A stretch of 64,000 bases of DNA. It comes from Candidatus Marinacidobacterium sp. (lineage in GTDB: Bacteria; Acidobacteriota; Vicinamibacteria; Marinacidobacterales; Marinacidobacteraceae). Position numbers and translations under genes: made by a program. The stretch is taken from positions 3,008,001 to 3,072,000 of the forward strand of contig OZ242011.1 of assembly GCA_965204755.1 (NCBI GenBank). The letters are read 5' to 3'. This document shows, one piece after another, positions 47,155 to 52,361 of the stretch (position 1 is its first letter; every line of letters starts with the position of its first letter). Under the pieces are notes generated by a model. It did no database searches. It saw nothing but the letters and a program-made list of their open reading frames with translations, and was not told the DNA's origin.

Positions 47155-49344
47155 ATGCCGGAACTCGGCCCGGACACCGAAGTCCGCTTCGTCAAGGGCG
47201 TCGGCGAACGCCGCGCGAAGGCGCTGGCCGAAGCCGGCATCCGCCGGGTCTCCGACCTCCTGCTGCGGCTGCCGTACCGCTACGAGGACCGCAGCGCCGG
47301 CCGCCCGGCGTGCGAGGTCCGGGACGGGGAGTCGGCGTCGGTCGAAGTGGTCGTCGAGTCGCTGCGCGTCCGCCCCACCCGCCGGCGCAACCTGAAGATC
47401 GTCGAACTCCGCGCCCGGGACGACACCGGCCCGGTGCGCGCCACCTGGTTCAACCGGCAGCACCTGAAGCAGGTCCTCCGGCCGGGCCGCCGCCTCGTCC
47501 TCTTCGGCGCCGCCAAGGTCGCCTATCCCGGTGCGCCCCCCGAGTTCCAAAACCCGAAGTACGAACTCATCACCGGTCCCCCGCCGCCCCGGTTCGAATC
47601 CTCGAGCGGGGACGAGCCGCCCGGTCCCGACGCCACCGACTCCGGCCCCACCGACGCCGGCCCCGATCCCCTGCATGTCGGGCGCATCGTCCCCGTCTAT
47701 GAACGCCTCGGCGAGATCCACCCCCGCCAGTTCCGCCGGATCCTCCACGACCTGGTGGAGTCCGGCGCCGGCGCCGAAACGGGCTGCCTCCCGGAGGAAC
47801 TCATCACCCGACTCGCCCTCCCCACGCGAGAAGAAGCCCTCCGGGAAGTCCACTTCCCCGAACCGGACGCGGAACTCGAAGCCCTCGCCGGGCGCCGGTC
47901 ACCGGGACACCGCCGGCTCATCCTCGAGGAGTTCTTCTCCTTCGCCCTCGGCCTCCTGCTGCGCCGCCGGGAAGACCGCACCGGGCGCGCCGGCGGCGGC
48001 GTCTTCCCGGTCAGCGACGCCGTCCGCGGCCTGTTCCGCCGGGTCGTCCCCTTCCGGCTCACCGGCTCGCAGCGGGACACGCTCCGGACGATCGCCCGCG
48101 AGTTCGCCGGCCCGCTCCCCATGCGCCGGCTGCTCCAGGGCGATGTGGGGTCGGGGAAGACCATCGTCGCGGTCGTCGCCGCGCTCATCGTCATCGACAA
48201 CGGGGCGCAGGCGGCGCTCATGGCGCCGACGGAGGTGCTCGCCGAGCAGCACTACGCCACGATCCGGCGCCTGCTGGAGCCCCACCGCATCCGGGTGGCG
48301 CTGCTCACTTCCGGCCTCTCCGCCGCCGACCGCCGGGCCACCCTGACCGCGGTGGCCAGCGGCTGGGCGCAGTTCGTCATCGGCACCCACTCGCTGATCC
48401 AGGAGGGGGCGCAGTTCCGCAACCTGGGTTTCGCGGTCGTGGACGAGCAGCACCGGTTCGGCGTGGAGCAGCGCCAACTGCTGGTCGAACGGGGCGCCGG
48501 CTGCGACCTGCTGGTCATGACCGCGACGCCGATCCCCCGGACGCTGACCATGGCCCTCCACGGCGACCTCGACCTCTCCGAACTCACCGAACTCCCGCCC
48601 GGCCGCCAGCCGATCGAGACGATCGTCCGCAGTTTCGCCGAGTTGGACGGCGTACACGACGCCGTGCGCGAGGAAGTCCGGCGAGGCCGACAGGCGTTCT
48701 ATGTCTGCCCGTTCATCGAGGACTCCGAAGCGGTGGACGGCAGCGGCGTCGAGCGCCGCTTCGCCGAACTCGCCGAAGGGCCGTTCCGCGGCCTGCGGCT
48801 CGACCTGGTCCACGGCCGGGTCCCGGCCGCGCAGCGCGACCGGGTCATGACCGCCTTCGCCACCGGCGAGGTGGATGTGCTGGTCGCGACCACGGTGATC
48901 GAAGTCGGCGTGGACATCCCGAACGCGACGGTCATGGTGGTGGAGAACGCCGAGCGGTTCGGCCTCGCCCAACTCCACCAGTTGCGCGGCCGGGTGGGGC
49001 GCGGGCGGTTCCCGTCCACCGCGGCGCTGGTGCACGGCGACGAACTCACCGAGTCCGCGAAGCGGCGGCTGGAAGTCCTGAAAGAGACCGCCGACGGCTT
49101 CCGCATCGCCGAGGAGGACCTGGCGATCCGCGGGCCGGGCGAGTTCTTCGGCGCCCGCCAGCACGGAGTCCCCCCGTTCCGCGTCGCCGACCTGGAGCGC
49201 GACGCCGAGTTCCTGCGGCAGGCGCGCCGGGAGGCGCAGCGTTTCCTCGACTCCGGCGCCGAGGAGCGGGAGGAGGGGCGGCGCATCCTCGGGGAAGTTC
49301 GCGCCGCCTGGGGCGACCGCTTCGGGTTGACCAAGGGCGGCTGA
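47155..49344 (+). CDS. recG: ATP-dependent DNA helicase RecG
   Basis: QGDVGSGKT, APTEVLAEQH, DEQHRFG, MTATPIPR, QLRGRVGR, DGF.IAEEDL..RGPGE. Confidence 0.97.
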   Translation: MPELGPDTEVRFVKGVGERRAKALAEAGIRRVSDLLLRLPYRYEDRSAGRPACEVRDGESASVEVVVESLRVRPTRRRNLKIVELRARDDTGPVRATWFNRQHLKQVLRPGRRLVLFGAAKVAYPGAPPEFQNPKYELITGPPPPRFESSSGDEPPGPDATDSGPTDAGPDPLHVGRIVPVYERLGEIHPRQFRRILHDLVESGAGAETGCLPEELITRLALPTREEALREVHFPEPDAELEALAGRRSPGHRRLILEEFFSFALGLLLRRREDRTGRAGGGVFPVSDAVRGLFRRVVPFRLTGSQRDTLRTIAREFAGPLPMRRLLQGDVGSGKTIVAVVAALIVIDNGAQAALMAPTEVLAEQHYATIRRLLEPHRIRVALLTSGLSAADRRATLTAVASGWAQFVIGTHSLIQEGAQFRNLGFAVVDEQHRFGVEQRQLLVERGAGCDLLVMTATPIPRTLTMALHGDLDLSELTELPPGRQPIETIVRSFAELDGVHDAVREEVRRGRQAFYVCPFIEDSEAVDGSGVERRFAELAEGPFRGLRLDLVHGRVPAAQRDRVMTAFATGEVDVLVATTVIEVGVDIPNATVMVVENAERFGLAQLHQLRGRVGRGRFPSTAALVHGDELTESAKRRLEVLKETADGFRIAEEDLAIRGPGEFFGARQHGVPPFRVADLERDAEFLRQARREAQRFLDSGAEEREEGRRILGEVRAAWGDRFGLTKGG

Positions 49345-49670
49345 CCCCGGGCATGTGTCTTCGACCCGTGTCTTTCGCGGGAGCGACGCTTCGGACGAGT
49401 CGCCCGCGGGTTCGCGCGGCTCTGCCCATGCGGCTGCTGCCGGGCGATGCCGGGTCGGGGAGGACCGTCTTTACGAAGGACCTCTCGCGTTTGGCTGGGG
49501 CAGGTCCGCGATCCGCTGTCCGGTCATCGCTCGCCGGAAGAAACCGACCGGTTCGGTCTTGCCGGTCACCGGGTCGCGCTCCCCTACCGCTCCGCGGAAT
49601 CGGGCCGCGCCTGCACACCTGAACCGAGGAAGCCGGCGCCGATGTTGATCGTGCGCTATCCTCTGTTTCC

Positions 49671-49804
49671 AAGGGCCGCATCCTACTAGCTTTCCTATAA
49701 AAGGAGTGCCTGGCAACTCCCAGAACAGGGACTCGGCTTGCCGAGCGGCGGACAGTGCGCGGCGTCCGTCGGGCGGCCCCACGGGGACTACCAGGCGCAG
49801 TCCC
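49671..49804. ncRNA. Putative structured RNA, array copy 1
   Basis: GGGCCGC/GCGGCCC long-range helix; hairpins GGAGT-GCCTGGCA-ACTCC, CTCGG-CTTG-CCGAG and GGGACT-ACCAGGCGC-AGTCCC; the two loops are complementary. Confidence 0.55.
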
Positions 49805-50021
49805 TACCCCCGCTTCGGGGTTTGCGAAGGACCTCTCGCGTTTGGCTGAGGCAGGTCCGCGATCCGCTGTCCGGTCATCTCTCGCCGGGAGGAAGCGACC
49901 GGTTCGGCCTTGTCGGTCACCGGGTCGCGTTCCACCACCGCTCCGCGGAATCGAGCCGCGCCTGCACGCCCGAAACGAGGAAGCCGGCGCCGAGGTTGTT
50001 CGTGCGCTATCCTTGGCATCC

Positions 50022-50159
50022 AAGGGCCGCATCCTACTAGCCCTACCGAACGGTTGAGGAGTGCCTGGCAACTCCAAAACAAGGGACTCGGCTTGCCGAG
50101 CGGCGGACAGTGCGCGGCGTCCGTCGGGCGGCCCCACGGGGACTACCAAGCGCAGTCCC
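50022..50159. ncRNA. Putative structured RNA, array copy 2
   Basis: Same stems; loop variant CCAAGC (G>A at 50149). Confidence 0.55.
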
Positions 50160-50375
50160 TACCCCCGCTTCGGGGTTTGCGAAGGACCTCTCGCGTTTGG
50201 CCGAGGCAGGTCCGCGATCCGCTGTCGGGTCATCGCTCGCCGGAACGAACCGATTGGTTCGACCCTGCCGGTCACCGGGTCGCGCTCCGCCACCGACCCG
50301 CGGTATCGAGCCGCGCACGCCCACCCGAACCGAGGAAGATCGCACCGATGTCGATCGTGCGCTACCCTCACGCGC

Positions 50376-50511
50376 AAAGGCCGCATCCTACTAGCTGACC
50401 CAAAAGGTGAGGAGTGCCTGGCTACTCCAAGATCAGGGACTCGGCTTGCCGAGCGGCGGGCAGTCGCGGCGCCCCCGGGCGGCCCCACGGGGACTACCAG
50501 GCGCAGTCCCC
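50376..50511. ncRNA. Putative structured RNA, array copy 3
   Basis: Same stems; compensatory GGGC/GCCC in place of GGAC/GTCC. Confidence 0.55.
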
Positions 50512-50724
50512 ACCCCCGCTTCAGGGTTTGCGAAGGACCTCTCGCGCTTGGCCGAGCAGGTTCGCCAGTTGCTTCTCGGTCATCTCTCGCCGGAAGAAAC
50601 TGATCAGATCGACCTCGTCGGTCGCCGGGTCGCGCTCCACCACCGCTCCGCGGTATCGAGGCCGCCCGCACACCCGAACTGAGGAAGCCGGCGCCGATGT
50701 TGATCGTGCGCTATCCTCACTCGT

Positions 50725-50861
50725 AAGGGCCGCATCCTACTAGCTAACCGAACGGTTGAGGAGTGCCTGGCAACTCCAAGAAAGGGGCTCGGCTTGCCGA
50801 GCGGCGGGCAGTGCGCGGCGTCCGTCGGGCGGCCCCACGGGGACTACCAGGCGCAGTCCCC
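50725..50861. ncRNA. Putative structured RNA, array copy 4 (adjacent to the nuclease stop codon)
   Basis: Same stems; hairpins at 50760-50777 and 50839-50861; ends 9 nt from the gene's TGA. Confidence 0.6.
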
Positions 50862-50870
50862 ACCCCCGCT

Positions 50871-51368
50871 TCAGGGTTTGCGAAGGACCTCTCGCGCTCG
50901 GTCAAGCAGGTTCGCGAGTTGCTGCTCGGTCATCTCTCGCCGGAAGAAACTGATCAGATCGACCTTGTCGGTCACCGGGTCGCGCTCCACCACCGCGAAG
51001 TAGAAAATCCCGTCGACTTCGCCCCACAGGCACAGGCGGTTGTCGAAGGCCTCCGGCGGCCGGTTCGCCGGCGGGCTGGGTCGGAATACGACCCTCGGCG
51101 CTTCCAACAGCGCCGGCAGCCGCCGGTAATCCTCGGTCCCAAGTTCGGGATGGCCCCTCTTCTTCCTCCTGGGTTGTGCGAGCCGTCCATCCTGTTTCTT
51201 CATGATGCGGTCGGGGAGTCGCACCACGGCGGTCCGGGCCCCGATCCAGTCGCGGACTTCGGGGTCCAGCGCGCCGGCGCGCAGGGCGCCCCGGGGTTCG
51301 GCTCGGAACCGGGCGAAGATCGGGCTCTCGAAGACGGAGCGGGCGAGTGTCCCGTTCAGGTCATCCAT
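50871..51368 (-). CDS. Stand-alone PBECR2-like (BECR-fold) putative ribonuclease, 165 aa
   Basis: VVRL...IMKKQ...HPELGTEDYRRLPALLEAP...Y.AVV.......DLISFFR resembles the PBECR2 pattern (recalled, not searched). Confidence 0.65.
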   Translation of the reverse strand: MDDLNGTLARSVFESPIFARFRAEPRGALRAGALDPEVRDWIGARTAVVRLPDRIMKKQDGRLAQPRRKKRGHPELGTEDYRRLPALLEAPRVVFRPSPPANRPPEAFDNRLCLWGEVDGIFYFAVVERDPVTDKVDLISFFRREMTEQQLANLLDRAREVLRKP

Positions 51369-51577
51369 CGGGCCCCGGCCCCGGCCTCTTTCCGGGAAGG
51401 GCGTTCGCCGGCGGGGATGGCCCGCCCGGGTCGGCGCGCGGGGCTCGTTCCGTCCGGCGGTCCGGAGGTTCGATCCGCCGATTACCGCGGCCCCGGCCTC
51501 CGGCGGCGCGAGCGTTCGCGCCTCCCGACGGTGCGGGAGTTCGCGCCTCCGGACATCCGCGTCGTTTGGTTATGGTT

Positions 51578-51698
51578 CCGGGTGGCGCATGTGACACGGT
51601 GAAATTCTCCCGGCCGTAACCGATCCCTTTCGGGATGAGAGTGCTATGTGGGGTTCCCGGCTCCGGCCGGATGGGAGGCCCCACCATGCGCCGCCCGG
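51578..51698. ncRNA. Putative 121-nt multibranched structured RNA next to the 3' end of the second PBECR2-like gene
   Basis: 14-bp closing stem CCGGGTGGCGCATG/CATGCGCCGCCCGG; internal ACGGT/GCCGT, ATCCC-TTTC-GGGAT and GTGGGG/CCCCAC; CTCCC/GGGAG possible pseudoknot. Confidence 0.6.
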
Positions 51699-51710
51699 GT
51701 GGGCAGCGAG

Positions 51711-52361
51711 TCACCACCGGGGGGGAGGTCGCGTCGCCCGTCGCTTGGCGCGTCCGACATCCTTCTCGTGGATCCTCTGGAAGTTCGTGAGGAAGATTTC
51801 GTTGTTCACGGTCTGCTTTATGGCGGCCTTGTAGTGATGGCCTTCGCGCTCTCCGAGGAAGAGAGTGAGATGGCGTCCGCTCGGTTCGGTGATCACCGCT
51901 CCCCCTTCGATGACATCCGGAAGCCGGCGATAGTCGTCGAGCGTGAGGTCCGGGTGGCGAACCACCTGCTTCACTGCGCTTTCCGCTGACAGTCGCACGA
52001 CCCGCGCGGGAGGGAACCCCCCTTCCGGCAGGGGCTCCAAGCCGGCTCGCGCCTCGTCGGTCAGGACCGCAACCGGCAATTCGCCGATTCGCGCCTTGAT
52101 GGCGGCGTCCTCGATCTTTATGAACAGCGCCTTTCCGGCATCCGGCAGGACTTCCCGGTAGGCCTCCACTCGCTCGAAGAACCCGGGGAGGACGGGACTC
52201 CCTTCGCCGAGGAGCCGTCGCACCGTCGCGCGGGCGGTCTCCGGGTCGGTGTTCTCGACCCATTCGAGGAGGGCGAGCAGGGCCGCCGGGCCCCGACCCG
52301 TCCGCGGAGGTGAGGCCGCGGGCGGGGGTCGGCTCCTTCGGCGGGGCGGCGCCGGAGGCAT
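51711..52361 (-). CDS. Second PBECR2-like putative ribonuclease (start uncertain; ATG 52361 chosen)
   Basis: VVRLSAESAVKQ..RHPDLTLDDYRRLPDVIE.G...YKAAIK.T..NEIFLTNFQR; paralogous to 50871-51368 (shared HP.L..(E/D)DYRRLP). Confidence 0.7.
   Translation of the reverse strand: MPPAPPRRRSRPPPAASPPRTGRGPAALLALLEWVENTDPETARATVRRLLGEGSPVLPGFFERVEAYREVLPDAGKALFIKIEDAAIKARIGELPVAVLTDEARAGLEPLPEGGFPPARVVRLSAESAVKQVVRHPDLTLDDYRRLPDVIEGGAVITEPSGRHLTLFLGEREGHHYKAAIKQTVNNEIFLTNFQRIHEKDVGRAKRRATRPPPRW

What the first reader, a model, noticed from the sequence alone, without database searches (positions are those of the whole stretch)
49657..50861. Array units keep a complex fold with a kissing-loop pair and covarying stems
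Seen in all four copies: hairpin GGAGT-GCCTGGC(A/T)-ACTCC and hairpin GGGACT-ACCA(G/A)GCGC-AGTCCC, whose loops GCCTGG/CCAGGC are complementary; hairpin CTCGG-CTTG-CCGAG; long-range GGCCGC/GCGGCC. One helix reads GGAC/GTCC (copies 1, 2), GGGC/GTCC (copy 4) and GGGC/GCCC (copy 3), an A-U to G-U to G-C series. Variation concentrates in three short segments: CTGTTTCC/TGGCATCC/CACGCGC/CACTCGT; TTTCCTATAAA/CCTACCGAACGGTTG/TGACCCAAAAGGTG/TAACCGAACGGTTG (each still a small hairpin); and CAGAAC/AAAACA/AAGATC/AAGAA. Inference: selection acts on RNA structure, and the variable segments are either neutral loops or specificity elements. Strand is unresolved because wobble evidence points both ways.
Basis: partly seen in the sequence, partly recalled or inferred. 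Interest (0 to 1): 0.8.

Follow-up and report, generated by a model that had tools for sequence, protein, structure and literature searches.

The report
Structured small-RNA array beside RNase gene
Four tandem copies of an undescribed, intricately folded small RNA gene lie tail-to-tail with a phage-type RNase gene, and this constant pairing suggests that the RNA keeps the RNase in check.

Summary
Window 49470-50996 is a 351-nt tandem array of 4.3 units. Each unit holds a ~137-nt RNA gene and a decayed copy of the last ~42 codons of the minus-strand gene 50871-51368.

The fold is a closing helix P1, four hairpins and a 3' hairpin P6. Across 54 copies from five genomes, 23 of 39 pairs show changes on both sides (0 of 500 shuffles). 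The two "kissing" loops are complementary in nearly every copy but never covary.

The strand is now resolved as +. There is a TAnnnT box before P1 in 45 of 50 copies, 88 G-U against 18 A-C cells, and a U-run after P6 in low-GC relatives.

The partner gene encodes a PBECR-type (BECR-fold) RNase domain, which in paralogs is fused to phage MuF. All 18 strong gene copies in five genomes have a convergent RNA. In Mu-like viral contigs the RNA lies antisense between genes F and G.

Rfam has no match and my literature searches found no description. Most likely it is an RNA antidote or regulator of the RNase. That function is inferred, not shown.

The parts
49470..49599 (-). Relic copy 1 of the last ~42 codons of gene 50871-51368. 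It is frameshifted and has no RNA gene to its left.
   Evidence: blastx gives 58% identity to residues 122-154. The frame is broken near the end. No similarity to the RNA was found in 49330-49480.
49657..49662 (+). -10-like box TATCCT of RNA copy 1. The equivalent boxes are at 50008-50013, 50363-50368 and 50712-50717.
   Evidence: TAnnnT lies 14-17 nt before P1 in 45 of 50 copies. No full sigma-70 match was found.
49671..49805 (+). RNA copy 1, from AAGGGCCGC to the end of P6.
   Evidence: Model R1 scores 153.2 bits, E 2e-43. The minimum-energy fold reproduces P1-P6.
49821..49950 (-). Relic copy 2 of the gene's 3' end, frameshifted.
50022..50160 (+). RNA copy 2. Helices: P1 50024-50030/50128-50134; P2 50045-50047/50052-50054; P3 50058-50062/50071-50075 with loop GCCUGGCA at 50063-50070; P4 50087-50091/50096-50100; P5 50102-50108/50119-50125; P6 50139-50144/50154-50159 with loop ACCAAGCGC at 50145-50153.
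   Evidence: R1 scores 172.2 bits. Fold. Pair counts. This copy has a C-A mismatch in the loop-loop helix.
50176..50305 (-). Relic copy 3 of the gene's 3' end, frameshifted.
50376..50511 (+). RNA copy 3.
   Evidence: R1 scores 154.1 bits.
50524..50646 (-). Copy 4 of the gene's 3' end. The frame is intact, it is 88% identical to residues 125-165, and it has its own stop codon.
50725..50861 (+). RNA copy 4. P6 ends 9 nt from the stop codon of the convergent gene.
   Evidence: R1 scores 166.3 bits. Sequence.
50871..51368 (-). Gene for P0001 (165 aa), a stand-alone PBECR/MuF-C-type (BECR-fold) RNase-like domain.
   Evidence: Homologs reach PBECR3. AlphaFold2 gives pLDDT 92.4. The best fold matches are CdiA-CT, BrnT, RelE and colicin D. 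The Atlas neighbours are PBECR2, MuF_C and PBECR3 clusters.
51361..52263 (-). Upstream overlapping ORF (300 aa) holding a second, more diverged copy of the same domain.
   Evidence: tblastn gives 28-30% identity at E 1e-7 to 3e-5 and a weak profile hit at E 2e-6. No Pfam hit. That it is a real gene is not shown.

Best explanation
The array holds four intact genes for a ~137-nt structured small RNA, read from the + strand. Each has its own -10-type promoter. Transcription starts at the conserved AA just before helix P1 and ends at or shortly after the invariant hairpin P6.

The RNA is the dedicated partner of the convergent gene, whose stop codon lies 3-9 nt beyond P6 or inside its loop. That gene encodes a PBECR/MuF-C-type RNase domain. 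The domain stands alone here and is fused to the phage head protein MuF (Mu gp30 type) in most paralogs.

The pair comes from Mu-like phages, where the RNA lies antisense between head genes F and G. In this acidobacterial lineage it has spread as solitary gene-plus-RNA modules.

Most likely the RNA is an antidote or immunity factor for the RNase. Two mechanisms are possible, alone or together:
- it binds the protein as a compact, pseudoknotted decoy, as type III antitoxins do;
- it pairs with the 3' part of the RNase mRNA, to which it is fully complementary, as type I antitoxins do.

The array grew by duplication or recombination at the conserved AVVERDP motif. Each event carried along the gene's last ~42 codons, which then decayed while the RNA genes stayed intact. 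The extra copies raise RNA dosage.

Shown here: the array, the fold, the strand signals, the gene-RNA linkage and the phage origin. Inferred: transcription, RNase activity and the antidote role.
For: Fold.

Strand.

Linkage:
- Within the family of 28 genomes, the RNA and strong matches to the protein occur in the same five (G000, G001, G008, G014, G021).
- All 18 protein matches with E <= 1e-20 have a convergent RNA match within 100 nt of the aligned protein end.
- Eight of 12 metagenome or viral RNA loci also have the convergent gene. In at least two of the other four the RNA lies at a contig end that leaves no room for the gene.

Protein:
- MuF (PF04233) is found in 8 of 21 convergent or nearby ORFs scanned and in 37 of 60 distant relatives.
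- PBECR3 scores above its cut-off in P0024, P0103 and P0137.
- The model has pLDDT 92.4. Its top fold matches are BECR/RelE-fold RNase toxins, at Z 5.6 and 5.5.
- His73 is nearly invariant in 48 sequences. Ser140 is invariant in 12. This fits the His plus Ser/Thr signature described for PBECR in PMC5512222 (passages read).

TA-like traits:
- No protein immunity gene sits downstream; the RNA holds that position.
- Modules lie among housekeeping genes.
- RNA genes outnumber strong protein matches: 13 full RNA copies to 4 in G000, and 32-33 RNA matches to 9 in G001.
- Orphan RNAs persist without a gene.
- Within units the RNA is better conserved than the spacer.
- The relic 3' ends are frameshifted in 3 of 4 units, while all 4 RNAs score 153-172 bits.

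Phage origin: two viral contigs show gp27, terminase, Portal_Mu, MuF, the antisense RNA, the virion morphogenesis gene G, and in one of them the protease I gene.
Against: - No transcript has been seen, because no RNA run holds the locus.
- No -35 element or full sigma-70 promoter was found.
- P0001 itself hits no Pfam, NCBIfam, PHROGs or PADLOC model.
- The fold matches are only Z 5-6, a range the tool calls common, and Foldseek gives nothing at E <= 0.001.
- RNase activity and toxicity are untested. PMC5512222 predicts that Mu's own MuF-C domain is inactive and perhaps RNA-binding, which would favour a cargo or cofactor role.
- Most relatives of the protein do without the RNA. Only 1 of 80 Mu-like viral loci matches and none of 3 proteobacterial loci does.
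- The layout differs from type III systems, and the protein is unlike type I toxins.
- The loop-loop helix never covaries.
- A purely cis-antisense role would not require the observed sequence invariance, and a purely protein-binding role would not require the convergent overlap. Neither mechanism is established.
Confidence: 0.45

Rival explanations
1. The RNA is a pure cis-antisense regulator of the phage late (head) operon. It pairs with the F-G intergenic stretch of the polycistronic mRNA and sets processing, stability or read-through. This would uncouple F from G, I and T expression or silence leaky late transcription in lysogens, without any toxin-antidote relation.
For: In viral contigs the RNA lies antisense inside the head operon between F and G. 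The stop codon of F is 3-9 nt from P6 or inside its loop. The sequence before P6 is not A-rich, so P6 is not a terminator for the gene strand and the mRNA should carry the full complement.
Against: Solitary chromosomal modules have no downstream G, I or T genes to regulate. Orphan RNAs and arrays of 3-6 RNA genes have nothing to pair with in cis. Antisense pairs need no sequence conservation, yet the P3 and P6 loops are almost invariant from 51% to 77% GC copies. The G-U excess shows selection on the fold of the small RNA itself.
Confidence: 0.2
2. The RNA is a cofactor or cargo of the MuF-C domain rather than its inhibitor. The domain binds it and carries it to the portal or into the capsid. 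The two complementary loops may pair between molecules, so the RNA could form rings or chains, as in phi29 pRNA or the self-assembling GOLLD and ROOL RNAs.
For: PMC5512222 (passages) places MuF in the phage head and suggests RNA binding for MuF-C. Two invariant, mutually complementary 6-nt loops show no intramolecular covariation. Homo-oligomeric phage-associated RNAs are reported in PMC12286853 (abstract start seen in the listing).
Against: Most modules lie outside prophages and some lack the MuF domain, including the window's own gene. 79 of 80 Mu-like viral loci lack the RNA, so packaging does not need it. There is no Rfam pRNA match. The family keeps the His and Ser positions expected of an active RNase.
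Confidence: 0.12
3. This is a self-cleaving or otherwise catalytic RNA in a tandem, satellite-like array, processed to unit length. The first reader raised this idea.
For: The array is tandem, and the fold is compact and multi-helical with a possible pseudoknot.
Against: No match to any Rfam ribozyme family, even at E <= 10. Each unit has its own promoter-like box, and low-GC copies have a terminator, so units need no processing. Most loci hold a single copy.
Confidence: 0.03
4. This is a DNA-level repeat, such as a recombination site or a miniature mobile element, with no RNA product. On this view the apparent fold is a by-product of palindromes.
For: The copies are dispersed and some sit near transposases. 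Units carry a gene 3' end, as site-specific insertions do.
Against: The G-U over A-C asymmetry (88 to 18) points to selection on one single strand. A conserved -10-like box and a U-run terminator frame the element. Compensatory changes keep six helices. No integrase is adjacent in the loci scanned.
Confidence: 0.03

Closest known systems
Type III toxin-antitoxin systems (ToxIN, CptIN, TenpIN)
   Same: An endoribonuclease-type protein lies next to several tandem copies of a structured, pseudoknot-capable RNA that could neutralise it. RNA copies outnumber the protein gene. (Abstracts of PMC8860590 and PMC13682666 seen in the listing.)
   Different: Type III repeats are about 36 nt (recalled), lie upstream of the toxin on the same strand, and are cut from one precursor by the toxin. 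Here the units are 351 nt, each RNA is ~137 nt with its own promoter-like box, the orientation is convergent, most loci hold one copy, and the protein is BECR-fold rather than ToxN-like.
Type I toxin-antitoxin pairs with convergent, 3'-overlapping RNAs (par/Fst RNA I-RNA II, TxpA/RatA, BsrG/SR4). Recalled, not read here.
   Same: A small RNA gene lies tail-to-tail with the toxin gene. The 3' hairpin abuts or overlaps the stop codon, and the loops are available for kissing contacts with the mRNA.
   Different: Type I toxins are mostly short hydrophobic peptides. Here the product is a 165-480 aa RNase-like protein. The RNA also has a conserved multi-helix fold and invariant loops that antisense pairing does not require.
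MuF polymorphic toxins and polyvalent proteins with PBECR domains (PMC5576092, PMC5512222, PMC3482391)
   Same: An N-terminal MuF domain carries a C-terminal BECR-type RNase domain next to the Mu-type portal. Downstream lie relic C-terminal gene pieces, each followed by the putative protector. This recalls the standalone toxin cassettes of polymorphic toxin loci (PMC3482391 abstract).
   Different: The protector position holds an RNA gene on the opposite strand, not an immunity protein. The relic pieces cover only the last ~42 codons, not a whole toxin domain. Most modules lie outside prophages. A term search of PMC5576092 found no mention of orphan modules or non-coding RNA.
phi29 pRNA (recalled) and the self-assembling GOLLD and ROOL RNAs (PMC12286853, listing only)
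   Same: A phage-associated structured RNA of similar size is linked to the head and portal gene set, and has two loops complementary to each other.
   Different: No sequence or model similarity (Rfam). Oligomerisation is untested. The RNA is missing from 79 of 80 related Mu-like loci. It is abundant in chromosomal arrays.

Membership tests
Any Rfam 15 RNA family (4227 models, including pRNA, ribozymes, ToxI and known phage motifs) | Match at or near the family's gathering score | tested here: not met
   One search returned five matches at E 3.7-7.4 and 12-17 bits, against gathering scores of 40-106. None corresponds to the element.
Type III toxin-antitoxin | Short tandem RNA repeats upstream of the toxin gene on the same strand | tested here: not met
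   The RNA genes are convergent with the protein gene and spaced 348-355 nt apart, and each has its own -10-like box.
Type III toxin-antitoxin | Toxin belongs to the ToxN, CptN or TenpN (or AbiEii-like) families | tested here: not met
   P0001 has no Pfam or PADLOC hit. Its relatives hit PBECR3, PBECR2 or MuF_C instead.
Type III toxin-antitoxin | RNA binds and inhibits the RNase, and the toxin processes the RNA | not testable with these tools
   Needs co-expression, binding and cleavage assays.
Type I toxin-antitoxin | Cis-encoded RNA complementary to the toxin mRNA | tested here: inconclusive
   The geometry fits. The genes are convergent, with the stop codon 3-9 nt from P6 or inside its loop. 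Transcript ends are unknown.
Type I toxin-antitoxin | Small hydrophobic toxin peptide | tested here: not met
   The product is a 165-aa mixed alpha/beta RNase-like protein.
PBECR / BECR-fold RNase domain (for the partner protein) | Profile match to PBECR or MuF_C models | tested here: inconclusive
   P0001 itself has none at E <= 10. Relatives score 30.3 (P0024), 37.2 (P0103) and 30.5 (P0137) bits against a cut-off of 30. Eleven of 60 relatives match PBECR3 at E <= 0.01. The Atlas neighbours score 0.91-0.93.
PBECR / BECR-fold RNase domain (for the partner protein) | BECR fold | tested here: inconclusive
   The best structural matches are CdiA-CT (Z 5.6), BrnT (Z 5.5, 75 of 77 residues aligned, rmsd 2.9 A), then RelE and colicin D (Z 4.0-4.8). 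Foldseek gives nothing at E <= 0.001. The matches are consistent, but Z is below 8.
PBECR / BECR-fold RNase domain (for the partner protein) | [quoted passage not shown] | tested here: met
   His73 is at least 90% conserved in 48 sequences. Ser140 is invariant in 12. Their equivalence to the published positions rests on my reading of the model.
MuF polymorphic toxin | N-terminal MuF domain next to a portal gene in a temperate phage | tested here: not met
   The window's P0001 lacks MuF, and its neighbours are recG and unassigned ORFs. Paralogs and viral homologs do meet the feature.
tRNA / tmRNA | ARAGORN detection | tested here: not met
   Zero genes found in 49300-51100.

The most novel reading that the evidence does not exclude
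The two invariant complementary loops pair between molecules rather than within one. It would travel with the virion, or gate the packaged RNase. That would make it a second, independent case of a head- or portal-associated RNA after phi29 pRNA. The chromosomal arrays would be a domesticated store of such RNAs.
Probability: 0.07. Interest if true: 0.9.

Novelty: new variant of a known kind. Interest (0 to 1): 0.66.

Why it matters
This is a well-supported new structured RNA family with a fixed protein partner, which makes it directly testable.

If the RNA neutralises the RNase, it would be the first RNA protector of a BECR-fold toxin that I found in these searches. It would also be the first RNA standing where polymorphic MuF toxins keep a protein immunity gene. 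That would link three fields: type I/III toxin-antitoxin biology, polymorphic toxins and phage head proteins.

It would also explain how cells and Mu-like phages tolerate an RNase that is made for packaging.

The arrays of relic gene tips plus intact RNA genes give a natural record of how such modules turn over.

Even if the antidote idea fails, an antisense RNA of conserved fold inside the Mu-type head operon is unreported in the sources I searched. Its invariant loop pair is a clean target for structure work.

Tried and rejected
- **Rfam**: at E <= 10, only chance-level rows.
- **tRNA/tmRNA**: none.
- **Folding energy**: z-scores of single units on both strands are -0.5 to -2.1, so energy does not discriminate.
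- **Promoter scan**: no full sigma-70 site. Four terminator-like sites on the minus strand are not conserved across copies.
- **Fifth RNA copy**: a degenerate copy left of the array (49330-49480) shows no similarity. The 67% figure came from the gene-fragment part.
- **Protein libraries for P0001**: Pfam, NCBIfam, PHROGs and PADLOC gave no hits. A profile search of PDB sequences gave none at E <= 10.
- **RNA expression**: no RNA holder is listed among public runs.
- **DNA contigs laid on the locus**: short-read contigs break at the repeats. One joint, 50995 to 49592, appears in one contig each of X3, X5 and X6 (side 38 letters). It may mean another unit order or number in related strains, but it is too weak to use.
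- **RNA model on three proteobacterial loci encoding relatives of P0001**: best hit 11.7 bits, partial.
- **RNA models on 80 Mu-like viral loci**: one match, L074.
- **150 other genomes of the phylum**: none found in those searched.
- **BLAST of two RNA copies against 50,697 phage records**: no match.
- **Literature**: searches, and term look-ups in PMC5737381 and PMC5576092, found no description of this RNA. Supplementary tables of those papers were not available and could list it.
- **Other ideas rejected**: integron attC, riboswitch and IS-end were considered and dropped. No integrase is nearby, no gene lies downstream on the RNA's strand, and no transposase is consistently adjacent.
Full report
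**1. What is in the sequence**

Window 49470-50996 is one tandem array with period 351/355, 4.3 copies, 87% matches and TRF score 2144. On the + strand each unit has three parts:
- about 125 nt that are the reverse complement of the last ~42 codons of the minus-strand ORF 50871-51368 (P0001, 165 aa);
- about 70 nt of spacer ending in a TAnnnT box;
- a ~137-nt structured element.

The order is tip1, RNA1, tip2, RNA2, tip3, RNA3, tip4, RNA4, then the real gene. There are therefore five gene 3' ends and four RNAs. The 125 nt between tip1 and the recG stop at 49344 show no similarity to the RNA.

Tips 1-3 are frameshifted. Tip4 is intact and 88% identical in protein to the real end.

**2. The fold**

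The parts are:
- P1, GGGCCGC/GCGGCCC, which closes a junction;
- P2, a variable hairpin;
- P3, GGAGU-GCCUGGCA-ACUCC;
- P4, CUCGG-CUUG-CCGAG;
- P5, which carries the A-U, G-U, G-C series;
- P6, the 3' hairpin GGGACU-ACCAGGCGC-AGUCCC, which follows P1.

On a structure-blind MAFFT alignment of 13 copies from this genome, 91.4% of cells pair and 10 of 39 pairs change on both sides. Slid controls give 36-50% pairing.

A covariance model (R1) found 15 matches in this genome and 54 in the loci fetched from five genomes. On that alignment 93.5% of cells pair. 23 of 39 pairs and 129 cells change on both sides, and 0 of 500 shuffles reach any of the measures. The alignment is fitted to the model and the copies are related, so these figures lean high. 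The compensatory series are nevertheless plain:
- P1 column 36/240: CG 33, UA 11, UG 6;
- P6 column 251/284: AU 46, GC 7.

The loop-loop helix (GCCUGG with CCAGGC) pairs in 99.3% of cells, but 4 of its 6 pairs never vary and 2 vary on one side only. It is conserved complementarity without covariation.

Folding energies are ordinary for this 72% GC genome.

**3. Strand and ends**

Three signals agree on the + strand.
- TAnnnT, mostly GCTAnnnT, lies 14-17 nt before P1 in 45 of 50 full copies. A conserved AA then precedes P1.
- At paired columns there are 88 G-U cells against 18 A-C cells.
- Among the 12 distinct lower-GC metagenome and viral copies, 5 have a T-run directly after P6. Their -10 boxes also look more canonical: TATACT, TATGAT, TATTAT.

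No full sigma-70 site is found, and no RNA-seq run holds the locus. Transcription is therefore inferred.

In the window the ~45 nt after P6 are as conserved among units as the RNA itself, with 2 variable columns. Here the RNA may run on over the last codons of the gene.

**4. The partner gene**

P0001 hits no library directly. The indirect evidence is consistent.
- Its relatives reach PBECR3: 30.3, 37.2 and 30.5 bits against a cut-off of 30.
- The protein-language Atlas places it among PBECR2, MuF_C and PBECR3 clusters at 0.91-0.93.
- A confident model, pLDDT 92.4, matches BECR/RelE-fold RNase toxins best: CdiA-CT at Z 5.6, BrnT at Z 5.5, then RelE, colicin D and YoeB. These Z values are modest.
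- His73 and Ser140 are conserved.

In paralogs the domain is the C-terminus of a 390-550 aa protein with an N-terminal Phage_Mu_F domain. 37 of 60 distant relatives also carry that domain. This is the phage Mu gp30 architecture described in PMC5512222 (passages read).

The upstream ORF 51361-52263 holds a second, diverged copy of the domain.

**5. Linkage**

In the organism's family of 28 genomes, the RNA is found in five. Strong protein matches occur in the same five. All 18 matches with E <= 1e-20 have a convergent RNA match within 100 nt of the aligned protein end. In the ORF maps the stop codon lies 3-9 nt from P6 or inside its loop, which yields proteins ending in DCAW. Six weaker domain matches have no RNA.

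RNA genes outnumber strong protein matches:
- G000: 13 full RNA copies to 4;
- G001: 32-33 RNA matches to 9, with arrays of 3-6;
- G008: 4 to 3.

Orphan RNAs also exist.

Other arrays (L045, L004, L001) also carry gene-tip relics between RNAs. L043, L044 and L040 do not.

A record title ties the congener to Candidatus Marinacidobacterium (Acidobacteriota, Vicinamibacteria). None of 150 other genomes sampled from the phylum matched.

**6. Origin**

An exact scan for the P6 hairpin found 5 viral and 8 metagenome contigs. The full RNA is present in most of them. A convergent MuF gene is present in 8 of 12.

Two viral contigs show the Mu head operon: gp27, large terminase, Portal_Mu, MuF, the antisense RNA, the virion-morphogenesis gene G, and in one of them the protease I gene. 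The late mRNA must therefore carry the complement of the RNA.

The RNA is rare. Only 1 of 80 Mu-like viral loci has it. None of 3 proteobacterial loci has it. No deposited phage matches.

Where it is absent, the F-G gap runs from overlapping to 129 nt, against 171 nt in L074, the viral locus that matches.

In this genome most modules lie among housekeeping genes. Only one lies beside Mu portal and transposase genes.

**7. Mechanism**

Shown:
- a conserved single-strand fold;
- promoter-like and terminator-like signals;
- strict pairing with a BECR-type RNase gene;
- phage ancestry;
- amplification of the RNA genes while the co-duplicated gene tips decay.

Inferred, and my best reading at about 0.45: the RNA protects against the RNase. 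It would do so as a compact protein-binding decoy, by pairing with the mRNA 3' region, or both.

The unit boundary falls at the conserved AVVERDP motif of the domain. This suggests recombination there, as in polymorphic-toxin cassette turnover (PMC3482391 abstract).

The rivals are:
- a pure antisense regulator of the head operon (0.2);
- a cofactor or cargo RNA, possibly oligomeric (0.12);
- a ribozyme (0.03);
- a DNA-only repeat (0.03).

**8. Novelty**

There is no Rfam family, and my searches found no paper. Supplements could not be read.

It resembles type III and type I antitoxins in logic but fails defining features of both. I therefore file it as a new variant of a known kind, not as a member of either.

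Noticed in passing
window 51361-52263 (-): A 300-aa ORF overlaps the start of P0001 by 8 nt and carries a second, diverged copy of the PBECR-like domain (28-30% identity to paralogs). It has no library hit, so it could be a tandem paralog or a decayed gene.
   Followed up: partly
L005 (G000:C1:3963300-3972000): A Mu-like prophage remnant. The Mu portal gene, a MuF-PBECR gene and the convergent RNA are followed on the same strand by a Mu transposase. That order does not fit one intact Mu genome.
   Followed up: partly
L006, L047, L054 and database proteins P0003 and P0018: Several predicted proteins end in ...DCAW. Their reading frame runs antisense into hairpin P6 and stops at a TAG in its loop, so gene callers extend these proteins into the RNA gene.
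   Followed up: partly
L046 (G001:C1:3535000-3549000): Three MuF genes lie in a row on one strand. The first and third have a convergent RNA, while the middle one has none.
   Followed up: no
L040 4607-5941 and L045 7297-9496: DDE transposase genes sit inside two RNA arrays of the congener and split them.
   Followed up: no
P0145, P0154: Two arginyl-tRNA synthetases, of 807 and 752 aa, match the P0001 profile. They also show a weak MuF_C-like stretch in an N-terminal insert.
   Followed up: no
L075, L076, L077, L079 (viral contigs): Mu-like phages whose F-G gap is ~100 nt but match neither RNA model. They might hold a different small element.
   Followed up: no
window 50995 joined to 49592: One DNA contig in each of three runs joins the real gene's repeat boundary to a unit spacer. 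This hints that related strains have a different number or order of units. The evidence is weak (38 letters on the shorter side).
   Followed up: partly
L062, L063, L065, L070, L073: In these lower-GC copies the UGCCUGG loop sits on the next hairpin (AUCCAG-UGCCUGG-CUGGAU), while the hairpin at the P3 position has another loop. The loop motif is kept although its carrier helix changed.
   Followed up: partly
L001 4069-4543 (G000:C1:2041868-2042342): Two RNA genes lie head to head with divergent promoters, next to a lone gene-tip relic (74% identical to P0001 residues 128-165) that has no gene body.
   Followed up: no
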